In this document: one piece after another, positions 55,247 to 58,320 of the stretch
Layout of the letters: each line of letters starts with the position of its first letter
Position numbering within the stretch: position 1 is the stretch's first letter
Source of the DNA: a virus
Virus record (IMG/VR): IMGVR_UViG_3300037234_000438
Span: 15,212 to 79,211 of that record
Direction: 5' to 3' (one strand)
DNA length: 64,000 bases
The notes under the pieces: model-generated
What the model was told of the DNA's origin: nothing
The model's input: only the letters and a program-made list of their open reading frames with translations
Database searches by the model: none
Translations under genes and position numbers: made by a program

Positions 55247-55462
55247 ATGAGCATAACTGAAAGGGATCTATTTTTAGCGGCAGCGCGGCTTGCGGCCGCA
55301 GTTTTGGCTAATCCTACATCGGGTTCGGTTGACGACCAATACAGCCAACAGCAAGCCATGGAAGTTGCCATTGCGTCCGTCAGGCTGGCGGCCAGCAATA
55401 AGGGGATATTTGTTCTCACGGAGCCCCTTGAGGAAGCGGTCTATAGGGCAACCAACCAATAA
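55247..55462 (+). CDS. small protein with tag B (EPLEEAVYRAT)
   Basis: ATG 55247 after previous stop. Confidence 0.65.
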   Translation: MSITERDLFLAAARLAAAVLANPTSGSVDDQYSQQQAMEVAIASVRLAASNKGIFVLTEPLEEAVYRATNQ

Positions 55463-55484
55463 ACATTTAATTAGGGAGAAGAAG

Positions 55485-55754
55485 ATGAGCGAAGAGAAGG
55501 TTGATTTTAAGTTTGGTCTCGGAGATGAAGTTAAGGATAGCATTACGGGATTCAAGGGGATTGTTACCGCCAGGACTCAGTGGCTACACGGTTGCAACGT
55601 ATACAGGGTTCAGCCGCAAGACCTGAAAGACGGCAAGAGGCTGGAGGTGGATCATTTTGACGAGCCTCAGCTTGAAGTTGTGGAAGAAGAGGTACACAAG
55701 GAGCACCGCAAGACAGGTGGCCCAGCGCATGAAGCAGTGATGACGAACAGATAA
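55485..55754 (+). CDS. SH3-like phage protein
   Basis: LGD.VKD.ITGF.G...R..WL.GC....VQP..FDE..L. Confidence 0.7.
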   Translation: MSEEKVDFKFGLGDEVKDSITGFKGIVTARTQWLHGCNVYRVQPQDLKDGKRLEVDHFDEPQLEVVEEEVHKEHRKTGGPAHEAVMTNR

Positions 55755-55775
55755 ACATTTAACCAGGAGGAAGCA

Positions 55776-56255
55776 ATGAAGAAAGACGAGAAAGCCAAAA
55801 ACGACGACGAACACGTCACGAGAGAAGAGTGTGAAAGAGAACTGTCTGTCAAGCTGAATGACAAAGAACTTATCAGCTATTCTAAAGAGCTGGCTCGCAA
55901 GCAGTGCGAGAAGGTCGAGAAGGACGAGCGAAAAAAGGAGATCATGGCAGAATACACCGCCGAACTAAAGAAATTCGACGCTGATATCGGTGTTCTGGCC
56001 AGAAAAGTCACCACAGGCCAAGAGCAGAGAACTGTCAAGTGCGTCTGGATTTTTGACTGGAAAGAGGGTGGTAAAAAACTCATCAGGACGGACACCGAAG
56101 AGGTCGTGAGGGAAGAGACTATTCAAGCCTCGGAGCGTCAGCAACACTTTGCGCTTGAGGAGCAAGCGAAGAAAGTCAAGGAGGCCTCTGACTTGAAAGA
56201 ACCCATAGGGGAATTGATAGACGAGAAGGTTGTTGACAAGCTAAGTGGCGACTGA
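55776..56255 (+). CDS. coiled-coil hypothetical protein
   Basis: AGGAGG RBS; G...R.V.C...R.DT.E.V..ERQ. Confidence 0.7.
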   Translation: MKKDEKAKNDDEHVTREECERELSVKLNDKELISYSKELARKQCEKVEKDERKKEIMAEYTAELKKFDADIGVLARKVTTGQEQRTVKCVWIFDWKEGGKKLIRTDTEEVVREETIQASERQQHFALEEQAKKVKEASDLKEPIGELIDEKVVDKLSGD

Positions 56256-56532
56256 CCTTGACAGCATAAATTCGAGCTCCTCTGAGATTTCGGAGGAGCT
56301 TACTTTCACTCTCAACATCTCGGATCTCCCGGATGTGCAGGTTGGAGATTATATCAGCGTAAGAGTGGAGGTAAACGGTGTCAATAGCAACATCATCAAG
56401 AGGTTCCTGGTGACGTCTCTGGCAGAGGATGCCGTAGCTGGGAACAAGGCGATAACTGCTAAATGTATCGAAACATATCCTGAAGAGTCTGAACTCGAAA
56501 AAGCGGTGAGGGAAGCGACGTGTCAAAGATAA
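56245..56532 (+). CDS. small protein resembling the gpJ hub barrel + tag B
   Basis: VGDYISV...RFLVTSLAE; ESELEKAVREAT. Confidence 0.65.
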   Translation: MATDLDSINSSSSEISEELTFTLNISDLPDVQVGDYISVRVEVNGVNSNIIKRFLVTSLAEDAVAGNKAITAKCIETYPEESELEKAVREATCQR

Positions 56533-56705
56533 AAACGATAATGGCCGGATGCTATAAGGTTGGTGATTGCGTCATATTTGGCGGTGAGAAGTTTGAGGTG
56601 ACGAAAATCATAAACCGCACCGCCATAGAGGTTGAACCCGCTCTGTCAGAACTAGAGAAAGCTGTAATGGAGGCGACAAATGAAGAAGAGAAGTGGCAAT
56701 CCTAG
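56520..56705 (+). CDS. small protein resembling the tail-tube insertion barrel + tag B
   Basis: VGDCV...VTKI...VEPAL; SELEKAVMEAT. Confidence 0.65.
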   Translation: MSKIKTIMAGCYKVGDCVIFGGEKFEVTKIINRTAIEVEPALSELEKAVMEATNEEEKWQS

Positions 56706-56859
56706 CTTTGTGTTCCCTAGTACACCAGCAGGAAAGTTGGCGTGGCAGATATTTAAAGGGATATACCGAAAGCCCGACGGCCTGTTTGAGCCTATGAGTA
56801 TAAAGGAGTCCATAGAGAGGCGCGTCAGAGCTCAGAAGGCAGTCAGGAGGCAACGGTAA
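56680..56859 (+). CDS. 59-aa protein carrying a portal-like peptide (not in ORF track)
   Basis: GGAGG + ATG 56680; FVFPSTPAGKLAWQIFK is 13/17 identical to the portal. Confidence 0.75.
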   Translation: MKKRSGNPSFVFPSTPAGKLAWQIFKGIYRKPDGLFEPMSIKESIERRVRAQKAVRRQR

Positions 56860-57255
56860 GTGAGTAATTCGATAAAATTACGGGCGCATGACTTAATGAA
56901 CTTCGAGCTTACTGAAGAATACGAGAGCGCGAGTCGCATCTCTTTTGGTGGCGTAGTTGAGGATATCCCCATTTCAAGAACGCAAAAGGTCTCGTTTGAG
57001 ATCGAGTCTTCCTCGTTTCCCAATCTTGACATGAGCCGTTATCTCGAGATAGATGTTTACGGGAAAAGGCTCAAAGTCTTAATTACTGAGAGGCGAATAC
57101 ACCAGGTTTCTCTAACGCATTCAATCGCTTCCTATGAGGGCGTGGTAGTCGAAGAGCCTGAGCCGGAAGAGTCTGAGCTTGAATCAGCAGTAAGGGCCGC
57201 TACGAGTACATGCCCTACGTGCAATAGGCCAATGGGGGATGATGATGTCAATTAG
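56860..57255 (+). CDS. small protein with tail-tube-like segment + tag B
   Basis: ESELESAVRAAT; AGGAGG RBS. Confidence 0.65.
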   Translation: MSNSIKLRAHDLMNFELTEEYESASRISFGGVVEDIPISRTQKVSFEIESSSFPNLDMSRYLEIDVYGKRLKVLITERRIHQVSLTHSIASYEGVVVEEPEPEESELESAVRAATSTCPTCNRPMGDDDVN

Positions 57256-57547
57256 TGGGCCAAGAGGCAGAATAAGGCGATTAGCCACTTATTACAAGGT
57301 AGACTTGGGCGATGTGGTGAAGATCTACAACAAAACTAAGCATGACTTCGATGAGACTCGAGGGATATTTAAAGAGGCTGCCGAGTTGAGCATCTCTCCT
57401 GAAGACGTGATGATTGCGAGGGAAGTTGCGGAGATGCTTGAGGGCAAAGATGAAATTAACGAGGGCGGAGCAGTGACCTTTCACATCAACTCAAAGGGTG
57501 GATATGTTCCTAGCGCCAATACTTGGCAAGATTATTTAAAGGTGTAA
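57239..57547 (+). CDS. small protein with tag A + protease-like HINSKGG peptide
   Basis: EVAEMLEG; VTFHINSKGGYV. Confidence 0.65.
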   Translation: MMMSISGPRGRIRRLATYYKVDLGDVVKIYNKTKHDFDETRGIFKEAAELSISPEDVMIAREVAEMLEGKDEINEGGAVTFHINSKGGYVPSANTWQDYLKV

Positions 57548-57572
57548 TTGATAAGAGCTTGGGAGAACAATA

Positions 57573-58016
57573 ATGTCCGACTATAGGCCGGCAACCGGCG
57601 AGCACTTGGATGTGCTGAGAGAAATGAAAGAAATCAATGATAAACTCAACGAGCTCTCCCGTGACTACGCGTGGTTTCATATACCAAGCATCGAGGTTGA
57701 CCACTCCATCGAAGGCGTCCGATGTAATGGACGCGAGCGGTTAAGAACTGCTATCGATGTTTATGAGCGGTATACCGAAATGGAAAAGACCTTTCTGGAT
57801 TTTATCGACAGGATAGAGAAGTCTATAAAGCTCGTGAAAAGAGGTCGAAATCTCTTCGAGGCATCTTTTGAGATTTGTGAATCATGTCGCGGGAATAAAG
57901 GTGAAAGAGAAACAAGCCGACATTGGGCGGACTGTTCTCATTGTTCTGGTAATGGATTTATTGATCGCGACCTATCGATGATCGAAAAGGCCGTGATGCT
58001 TGCCGAAGATGTCTGA
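57573..58016 (+). CDS. protein with DnaJ-type CxxCxGxG zinc finger + tag B variant
   Basis: CESCRGNKG, CSHCSGNG; SMIEKAVMLA. Confidence 0.65.
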   Translation: MSDYRPATGEHLDVLREMKEINDKLNELSRDYAWFHIPSIEVDHSIEGVRCNGRERLRTAIDVYERYTEMEKTFLDFIDRIEKSIKLVKRGRNLFEASFEICESCRGNKGERETSRHWADCSHCSGNGFIDRDLSMIEKAVMLAEDV

Positions 58017-58320
58017 TAAGGAGCCCATATGCCCCACAGAAGCCAAGGTGATTCTGAGTAATGAGGTGGGTGGCGAGAGAATCAGATCTATTAAATTCTC
58101 CGCCTCGATTAGGCATGACAACCCCATAGAGAACTTACAGCCAGAAAGCGTGATCAATGTGCAACTACACGAATATATTTTTGAGACTGTGATTAACAAG
58201 ATTCACCTGAACTATAACACTCCATCCGAGATAGAAATTGACGTAATTGGCACAGTGACAGGAATCAAGCATATCAACGAATCAGAACTCGAAGCAGCCG
58301 TGAGGAAAGCCGTTGACTGA
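58009..58320 (+). CDS. beta-rich small protein + tag B
   Basis: ESELEAAVRKAV. Confidence 0.65.
   Translation: MSDKEPICPTEAKVILSNEVGGERIRSIKFSASIRHDNPIENLQPESVINVQLHEYIFETVINKIHLNYNTPSEIEIDVIGTVTGIKHINESELEAAVRKAVD

What the first reader, a model, noticed from the sequence alone, without database searches (positions are those of the whole stretch)
55421..58317. Tag B: shared near-C-terminal helix (S/P)xLExAVRxAT on at least seven mostly unrelated small proteins
SEEN: HPLEIAVRKAT (1503), EPLEEAVYRAT (55421), ESELEKAVREAT (56485), LSELEKAVMEAT (56643), ESELESAVRAAT (57169), LSMIEKAVMLAE (57972) and ESELEAAVRKAV (58279), plus a broken copy near 56824. All lie within about 17 residues of the C-terminus and use varied codons, so this is a peptide signal and not a DNA repeat. 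KNOWN: T4 internal proteins share a short capsid-targeting sequence, and terminal peptides often act as docking or degradation signals. INFERENCE: a common address label for packaging, oligomerisation, or a host protease/chaperone.
Basis: partly seen in the sequence, partly recalled or inferred. Interest (0 to 1): 0.8.

Follow-up and report, generated by a model that had tools for sequence, protein, structure and literature searches.

The report
Shared C-terminal helix tag on phage proteins
Seven small proteins of unknown function in an orphan marine-sediment phage end in the same short helix, (S/P)xLExAVRxAT, which selection keeps at the protein level; it is probably a common docking or address peptide, but no partner was found.

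Summary
Seven in-frame copies of (S/P)x[LI]ExAV..A[TVE] lie on the + strand, at the coordinates given. Each ends 1-16 residues before a stop codon. The strict pattern occurs 7 times in the six frames of the 79-kb contig, against about 0.6 expected. Leave-one-out profiles recover every copy.

In the conserved columns the copies differ at 10%, 0% and 74% of codon positions 1, 2 and 3. Synonymous sites are therefore saturated while the peptide is kept. This points to protein-level selection, not a DNA or RNA repeat.

Two decayed copies show that the tag spreads as DNA and decays when selection lapses. One is at 56825-56854. The other lies outside the window, at contig 7369.

With the tag removed, only C (56245) and E (56860) resemble each other. 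The carriers look like different domain types.

No relative with the tag exists in any collection I searched. Conservation across phages therefore cannot be tested, and the function is inferred.

My best reading is a short terminal docking helix on varied cargo, analogous to the T4 capsid-targeting sequence, the 80alpha scaffold/CpmB helix and microcompartment encapsulation peptides. Its partner is unknown. Rival readings are a structural remnant of fast-diverging paralogues and, in part, an overlap with the next gene's ribosome-binding site.

The parts
1500..1535 (+). Tag B copy A (EHPLEIAVRKAT) at the end of the small ORF 1356-1550. Four residues follow it.
   Evidence: Leave-one-out score 24.8 bits.
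55418..55453 (+). Tag B copy B (TEPLEEAVYRAT) at the end of ORF 55247-55462. Two residues follow it. AlphaFold2 models the carrier as three helices, with the tag as helix 58-69.
   Evidence: Leave-one-out score 13.4 bits, with one other position as good.
56485..56520 (+). Tag B copy C (ESELEKAVREAT) at the end of ORF 56245-56532. Its GTGAGG codons lie 8 nt upstream of a GTG at 56520, a possible start of the next gene.
   Evidence: Leave-one-out score 36.5 bits.
56643..56678 (+). Tag B copy D (LSELEKAVMEAT) at the end of ORF 56520/56541-56705. Its GGAGG lies upstream of the ATG at 56680. Similarity to C extends about 12 residues upstream of the tag.
   Evidence: Leave-one-out score 34.2 bits.
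56825..56854 (+). Decayed tag B at the 3' end of ORF Z (56680-56859). It reads SEL(E)KAVR(E)AT with two 1-nt deletions, so only KAVR stays in the Z frame. Its GGAGG precedes the GTG start of E at 56860.
   Evidence: one match, none expected by chance.
57169..57204 (+). Tag B copy E (ESELESAVRAAT) in ORF 56860-57255, followed by a 16-residue tail containing CPTC. The helix is the only moderately confident part of the AlphaFold2 model.
   Evidence: Leave-one-out score 28.6 bits.
57972..58007 (+). Tag B copy F (LSMIEKAVMLAE), the weakest form, at the end of ORF 57573-58016. The carrier has a DnaJ-like CxxCxGxG zinc-finger motif (below Pfam's cut-off).
   Evidence: Leave-one-out score 15.1 bits.
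58279..58314 (+). Tag B copy G (ESELEAAVRKAV) at the end of ORF 58000/58009-58320. Its GTGAGGAAA lies upstream of the TTG at 58313, the start of the next small zinc-ribbon ORF.
   Evidence: Leave-one-out score 26.9 bits.

Best explanation
Tag B is a short C-terminal alpha-helix of about 11 residues. It has an S/P N-cap and a small hydrophobic face made of L, A, V and A.

The tag arose once and spread inside this phage genome by duplication and recombination of gene 3' ends. It is now kept by purifying selection at the peptide level on small early or accessory proteins whose main domains differ.

The most likely mechanism (inferred, not shown) is that it acts as a common docking or address helix. 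It would bring varied cargo domains to one shared partner: a virion-assembly intermediate such as the procapsid or scaffold, or a host hub.

This is the logic of the T4 capsid-targeting sequence on diverse internal proteins, and of the 80alpha scaffold/CpmB helix. The partner is unknown.

Shown here: the copies, their non-random number and position, peptide-level selection, decay of unselected copies, helical prediction, and the dissimilarity of the carriers.

Inferred: binding to a common partner.
For: Seven copies occur against about 0.6 expected. All are on the coding strand and end 1-16 residues before a stop.

Third codon positions are saturated (0.74 difference) while second positions never vary in the conserved columns.

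Two frame-broken relics show descent as DNA and decay when the peptide is not read.

With the tag removed, 20 of 21 carrier pairs show no similarity. B is modelled as all-helical. C and G get tail/baseplate-like beta-domain leads (C/E/G profile). F has a zinc-finger motif.

The tag is modelled as a helix in both AlphaFold2 runs, in models of low overall confidence (tag pLDDT about 65).

Five of the seven copies have a proline within six residues upstream, in Pro/Glu-rich segments.

Precedents exist: T-even internal proteins are diverse and share only a capsid-targeting sequence (PMC3012670). 80alpha SP and SaPI1 CpmB share a C-terminal helix-and-hook that binds the capsid protein (PMC5644958). 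Encapsulation peptides are short terminal helices joined by poorly conserved linkers (PMC4594438).
Against: No partner was identified.

There is no conservation outside this one metagenomic contig, because no relatives exist.

The helix is only weakly to moderately amphipathic (hydrophobic moment 0.40-0.68, shuffle p 0.02-0.29).

It is shorter than typical targeting peptides.

The carrier genes sit among replication and accessory genes on the + strand, not in the virion module.

The phage's own protease-scaffold C-terminus does not match the tag profile.

C, D, E and the relic are tandem neighbours, and C-E are paralogues, so part of the sharing is simple paralogy.
Confidence: 0.45

Rival explanations
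1. The tag is a structural remnant of a fast-diverging paralogue family. The carriers descend from one small gene by tandem duplication. The C-terminal helix is the slowest-evolving element of their own fold, or a homo-oligomerisation element, and there is no shared external partner.
For: C, D, the relic Z and E are consecutive genes, and so are F and G. C-E similarity spans the whole domain (E 3e-6; z 3.1 without the tag). C-D similarity extends to about 25 residues. The relics show inheritance as DNA. In B the tag is modelled as the third helix of a small helical protein, directly after a hydrophobic segment.
Against: Twenty of 21 pairs have no similarity outside the tag. The carriers look like different classes: all-alpha B, beta-rich C/E/G and zinc-finger F. 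One helix is unlikely to have the same structural role in all of them. Copy A lies more than 50 kb from the array.
Confidence: 0.3
2. The tag is a gene-junction element acting at the nucleotide level. The 3' half of the tag (GTR AGG / GGAGG) would serve as the Shine-Dalgarno site for the overlapping start of the next gene. Alternatively the junction would serve as a recombination linker for swapping small-gene cassettes. The peptide would be largely a by-product.
For: At four junctions a GAGG or GGAG inside the tag lies 6-9 nt upstream of a candidate start of the next ORF: GTG 56520, ATG 56680, GTG 56860 (from the relic) and TTG 58313. There is a mild codon bias towards GTR (6 of 7 Val) and AGG (4 of 5 Arg), against genome usage of 0.46 and 0.30 (my binomial p is about 0.03-0.04 each, uncorrected). 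The contig-7369 copy also sits exactly at a gene junction.
Against: Variation follows the three-base codon pattern, and third positions are saturated. That is the signature of protein-level, not RNA- or DNA-level, constraint. In A, B, E and F the next start has its own Shine-Dalgarno site 20-60 nt further on. The conserved SELE part lies too far upstream to be a ribosome-binding site. There is no excess RNA structure (z +1.0 to -0.8) and no Rfam match. DNA identity between copies is too low for efficient homologous exchange. Database gene calls start D and G at downstream ATGs, which would remove the D junction (GTG 56520) from the four listed.
Confidence: 0.1
3. The tag is a regulated-turnover signal. 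The helix would be recognised by a host or phage protease or adaptor (for example the Clp or Lon systems, or the phage S49 prohead protease), giving all carriers a common lifetime or a processing site.
For: The tag is terminal, peptide-level and shared by otherwise unrelated short proteins. The phage encodes an S49 protease-scaffold at 33986-35464.
Against: The motif is not at the extreme C-terminus, because variable tails of 1-16 residues follow it. It does not resemble ssrA-type degrons (my own knowledge). No cleavage-site evidence exists. This is a special case of the docking reading.
Confidence: 0.1

Closest known systems
T4 capsid-targeting sequence (CTS) of the T-even internal proteins
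   Same: A short conserved terminal peptide is the only thing shared by a diverse, fast-evolving set of small phage proteins (PMC3012670). The architecture is constant tag plus variable cargo.
   Different: The CTS is N-terminal and is removed by the prohead protease (my own knowledge). Tag B is C-terminal. There is no sequence likeness, and packaging of the carriers was not shown. The head module here is lambda-like (portal, S49 protease-scaffold), not T4-like.
C-terminal helix-and-hook of the 80alpha scaffolding protein and SaPI1 CpmB
   Same: An 11-residue C-terminal helix shared by otherwise different proteins docks them on the capsid protein (PMC5644958). The length and position are similar.
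   Different: There is no RIIK-type hook. The residues after tag B are variable. The phage's own scaffold C-terminus does not carry tag B.
Bacterial microcompartment encapsulation peptides
   Same: Both are short terminal helices joined to diverse cargo by poorly conserved hydrophilic linkers, sometimes followed by a short terminal fragment (PMC4594438). From memory only, the PduP peptide reads SELETLIR.., which resembles SELEKAVR.
   Different: Encapsulation peptides are 15-20 residues long and strongly amphipathic. Tag B is about 11 residues with a small hydrophobic face. The contig has no BMC shell gene.
Lineage-specific paralogue families of small phage early genes
   Same: The genes form a tandem array of small ORFan genes with partial similarity (C-E, C-D) and decayed members.
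   Different: Outside the tag most members are not detectably related.

Membership tests
T4-type capsid-targeting sequence | N-terminal position of the roughly 10-residue tag | tested here: not met
   All seven intact copies are C-terminal. Only the degenerate contig-7369 copy is N-terminal.
T4-type capsid-targeting sequence | Carriers are packaged in the head and the tag is cleaved by the prohead protease | not testable with these tools
   This needs virion proteomics. The phage is known only as a metagenomic contig.
80alpha SP/CpmB helix-and-hook | C-terminal helix of about 11 residues | tested here: met
   AlphaFold2 helices at E 106-115 and B 58-69 in low-confidence models, with pLDDT about 65.
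80alpha SP/CpmB helix-and-hook | Conserved hook (RIIK) after the helix, shared with the phage's own scaffold C-terminus | tested here: not met
   The tails after the tag are variable, 1-16 residues long. No tag-profile hit above 12 bits was found in the protease-scaffold or any structural protein.
BMC encapsulation peptide | 15-20-residue amphipathic helix plus a poorly conserved linker at a terminus | tested here: inconclusive
   The terminal helix and linker are present. The helix is only about 11 residues long and its hydrophobic moment is not clearly above shuffles.
BMC encapsulation peptide | BMC shell proteins (PF00936) in the same system | tested here: not met
   No PF00936 match in the contig. 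The host genome is unknown.
C-terminal degron (ssrA-like) | Motif at the extreme C-terminus with a free carboxylate | tested here: not met
   One to 16 variable residues follow the motif.
Single paralogous protein family | Detectable similarity outside the shared segment | tested here: not met
   Only C-E of 21 pairs is similar (z 3.1). C-D similarity extends only about 12 residues upstream. Remote homology cannot be excluded.
Nucleotide-level repeat or RNA element | Conservation independent of codon phase, or a conserved RNA structure | tested here: not met
   Differences by codon position are 0.105, 0.0 and 0.743. Folding z scores run from +1.0 to -0.8. No Rfam match.

The most novel reading that the evidence does not exclude
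This phage runs a modular 'constant tag plus variable cargo' system. A conserved C-terminal helix would deliver a diversifying set of small domains to one common site, such as the procapsid interior, the tail or a host hub. Several of these domains look like pieces of virion proteins: tail-tube or baseplate-like beta domains in C and G, and neighbours with tail-fibre-tip and portal fragments. This would be a C-terminal, lambda-like-head counterpart of the T4 internal-protein system, or a set of tagged virion-protein mimics.
Probability: 0.2. Interest if true: 0.75.

Novelty: new variant of a known kind. Interest (0 to 1): 0.45.

Why it matters
If the helix is an address label, it would be a second, independent example of a phage using one short peptide to route many unrelated small proteins. 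It would be C-terminal and would sit in a lambda-like head background. Once the partner is known, such a tag could carry foreign cargo.

It would also give a handle on a block of ORFan genes that homology searches cannot touch: identify the tag's partner and the whole set gains context.

If instead it is only the last surviving piece of a paralogue family, it is a clean illustration of how fast phage accessory genes diverge while one helix is held fixed.

Practical value is limited. The phage exists only as one marine-sediment contig with an unknown host.

Tried and rejected
- **Relatives carrying the tag.** The IMG/VR loci around the topoisomerase-like gene (41-45% identity) have no motif in the flanks or in the whole records.
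- **Major capsid protein and carrier E.** Neither has a relative in IMG/VR.
- **Degenerate DNA pattern across IMG/VR.** It gave 17 single hits. Most were internal to longer ORFs and no locus held more than one copy. Seven belong to one unrelated family of about 166 residues.
- **Word-indexed search of 5.8 billion clusters for C and F.** Only the query itself was found.
- **HMMER profile of C/D/E/G over 1.84 billion representatives.** It found only the phage's own proteins, plus weak matches of the N-terminal domain to cadherin-like beta-sandwich repeats.
- **tblastn of E against GenBank phages at E <= 10.** Nothing.
- **Pfam and PHROGs on the carriers.** No match reached Pfam's cut-offs. The E tail weakly hits phrog_16465 and the Rad50 zinc hook through CPTC only.
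- **PDB sequence search with the tag profile.** Only chance-level hits.
- **Tag A versus tag B by hhalign.** No relation. My by-eye alignments of tag B to either helix of tag A are therefore not supported.
- **C/E/G N-domain profile against the phage's own ORFs.** No virion-protein match.
- **AlphaFold2 of E with a 4-sequence alignment.** pLDDT was 43, so the fold is unusable.
- **Complex prediction of C with D.** It returned 'no answer', which is no evidence either way.
- **The look-up of sequencing runs.** One DNA holder was listed, a marine sediment metagenome that is probably the source. No RNA holder was listed.
- **Chance.** Rejected by the statistics above.
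Full report
**Setting.** The window is bases 15212-79211 of a 79,211-base linear IMG/VR viral contig, which CheckV estimates as 66% complete. The only sequencing run that holds it is a marine sediment metagenome, probably its source.

The contig has a lambda-like structural block on the minus strand. This block contains a portal at 35467-37086, an S49 protease-scaffold at 33986-35464, a tail tube, and M/L/J-like tip proteins. 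Long plus-strand blocks carry replication and small accessory genes.

The closest phages are only 41-48% identical on a topoisomerase-like marker gene. In GenBank these are Chi-like Salmonella phages, Xylella phage Sano and Pseudomonas phage NP1. In IMG/VR they are four contigs.

A six-frame scan with [LIMV]E.AV...[ATV] finds seven matches in the whole contig, all on the plus strand. Six of them lie 10-25 residues before a stop. Shuffled translations give a mean of 0.56 matches, with a maximum of 3 in 200 shuffles.

The next best position in any frame scores 16.7, which falls inside the range of the best scores from 30 shuffles, 8.5-17.6.

In leave-one-out tests every copy is recovered. At most one other position out of 93,531 scores as well. 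B and F are the weakest copies, at 13.4 and 15.1 bits.

After the last motif residue the proteins continue for 4, 2, 3, 8, 16, 2 and 1 residues.

**It is a peptide-level signal.** In the conserved columns (L, E, A, V, A), pairs of copies differ at 10.5%, 0% and 74.3% of codon positions 1, 2 and 3. Third positions are therefore as different as random sequence, while second positions never change. This is the signature of long-standing purifying selection on the amino acids.

The copies carry no sign of an RNA or DNA element:
- There is no Rfam match.
- No promoter-like or terminator-like site lies at the copies.
- No folding exceeds shuffled sequence, with z scores from +1.0 to -0.8.

**It spreads as DNA and decays when not selected.** At 56825-56854, the 3' end of the 59-residue ORF Z matches the degenerate tag consensus at every constrained base. 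Two single bases are missing, so only KAVR remains in frame.

A second degenerate copy lies outside the window, at contig 7369. There an upstream ORF ends in ..LPEED. A stop and an ATG follow, then HELEKAV, then a 4-nt insertion, and then codons that would read RELT.

A DNA profile search finds no further copies.

**The carriers.** With the tag removed, only C (56245) and E (56860) are significantly similar (z 3.1). The other 20 pairs are not. C and D share about 12 more residues upstream of the tag.

The carriers appear to belong to different classes:
- B is modelled as three helices, with the tag as the third (pLDDT 66).
- F has a DnaJ-like zinc-finger motif (E 6e-4, below Pfam's cut-off).
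- The C/D/E/G profile weakly matches cadherin-like beta-sandwich repeats through its N-domain.
- ESM Atlas features and its model of G point to small tail-tube or baseplate-type beta domains (score 0.96, TM 0.64). C gives similar but weaker leads. I treat these as leads only.

All carriers are ORFans. None has a homologue among 15 billion proteins or in GenBank phages.

**A partial nucleotide-level overlap.** At four junctions a GAGG or GGAG inside the tag's AVR/AVME codons lies 6-9 nt before a candidate start of the next ORF. These starts are GTG 56520, ATG 56680, GTG 56860 (from the relic) and TTG 58313.

Val and Arg codons in the tag lean mildly towards GTR and AGG. This may help keep the tag at gene ends within the array.

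It cannot explain the following:
- the conserved SELE part, which lies too far upstream;
- the codon-phased pattern of variation;
- copies A, B, E and F, whose downstream genes have their own ribosome-binding sites.

**What it most likely is.** The anatomy is a short helix with an S/P cap, usually preceded by a Pro/Glu-rich stretch, placed at the C-terminus of dissimilar small proteins and held constant while everything else diverges.

That is the anatomy of a terminal docking or address peptide. Three precedents share it:
- The T-even internal proteins are diverse and share only a capsid-targeting sequence (PMC3012670).
- The 80alpha scaffold and SaPI1 CpmB share a C-terminal helix-and-hook that binds the capsid protein (PMC5644958).
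- Microcompartment encapsulation peptides are short terminal helices on poorly conserved linkers (PMC4594438).

Membership in any of these fails on defining features. The CTS is N-terminal. The helix-and-hook needs a conserved hook shared with the phage's own scaffold, which is absent here. Encapsulation peptides are longer, more amphipathic and accompanied by BMC shell genes, and the contig has none.

So tag B 'works like' these at most. I rate the docking reading at 0.45. The structural-remnant-of-paralogues reading gets 0.30. The junction-element and turnover-signal readings get about 0.10 each. These readings overlap, so the figures are not strictly exclusive.

**Limits.** Everything rests on one contig.

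The structure model of E was of low confidence. The one complex prediction gave no verdict.

**Relation to other notes of this scan.** First-reader notes on the same genome describe an array of 'virion fragment plus tag' proteins, the relic in Z and a second module, tag A. I confirmed three points:
- the relic in Z;
- the 13/17 identity between Z and a portal segment;
- the tail-fibre-tip paralogue W (E 3e-9).

I found no statistical link between tag A and tag B.

Noticed in passing
G000:C1:7321-7430 (outside the window, upstream part of the contig): This is a ninth, degenerate tag B copy at a gene junction. The upstream ORF ends ..LPEED. A TAA and an ATG follow, then HELEKAV in frame, then a 4-nt insertion, then codons that would read RELT. 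The ELEKAV codons match those of copy D at 17 of 18 bases.
   Followed up: partly
window 57347-57445, 58599-58697, 58882-58980, 60845-60943, 63304-63381, 3724-3822: A second shared module, 'tag A', is about 33 residues long and ends [VI]A[ED]xL[ES]G. It looks like a helix-turn-helix and occurs at N-terminal, internal and C-terminal positions. The proteins at 58464, 60743 and 63304 also share a Cys-rich segment after it. A profile comparison with tag B showed no relation.
   Followed up: partly
window 58882-59262 vs 16106-17179 (-): A 126-residue protein combines tag A with a paralogue of the C-terminal tip of the 357-residue tail-fibre-like protein (33% identity over 104 residues, E 3e-9 in the contig's own protein set).
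   Followed up: partly
window 56680-56859 vs 35467-37086 (-): The 59-residue ORF Z carries a 17-residue stretch that is 13/17 identical to portal residues 293-309 (E 1e-4 in the contig's own protein set). Its 3' end holds the decayed tag B.
   Followed up: partly
window 58009-58317 and 56245-56529: ESM Atlas places G next to Sipho_Gp37/Prophage_tail clusters (score 0.96, 172-174 shared features). Its own model of G aligns to tail-tube-like domains (TM about 0.64). C gives weaker tail/baseplate leads. These are leads only.
   Followed up: partly
G000:C1:56-226 and 2143-2406 (outside the window): Two small ORFs share yet another C-terminal module (..GL[VI][ST]xSEA[VL]..IK; E 0.005 in the contig's own protein set). 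Shared terminal helices therefore seem to be a general habit of this genome.
   Followed up: no
window 57205-57252: The tail of E after the tag contains CPTC. It weakly matches the Rad50 zinc hook (Pfam E 0.075) and the last 60 positions of phrog_16465, an exonuclease family (E 3e-4).
   Followed up: partly
window 10000-10623 (-) and 38631-39323 (+): Two ORFs share an HNH-like H..DGN..N segment, so they may be homing endonucleases.
   Followed up: no
window 54346-55245: This topoisomerase-like gene (annotated 'DNA topoisomerase' in Chi-like and NP1-like phages, 46-48% identity) is the only gene next to the array that has clear relatives.
   Followed up: partly
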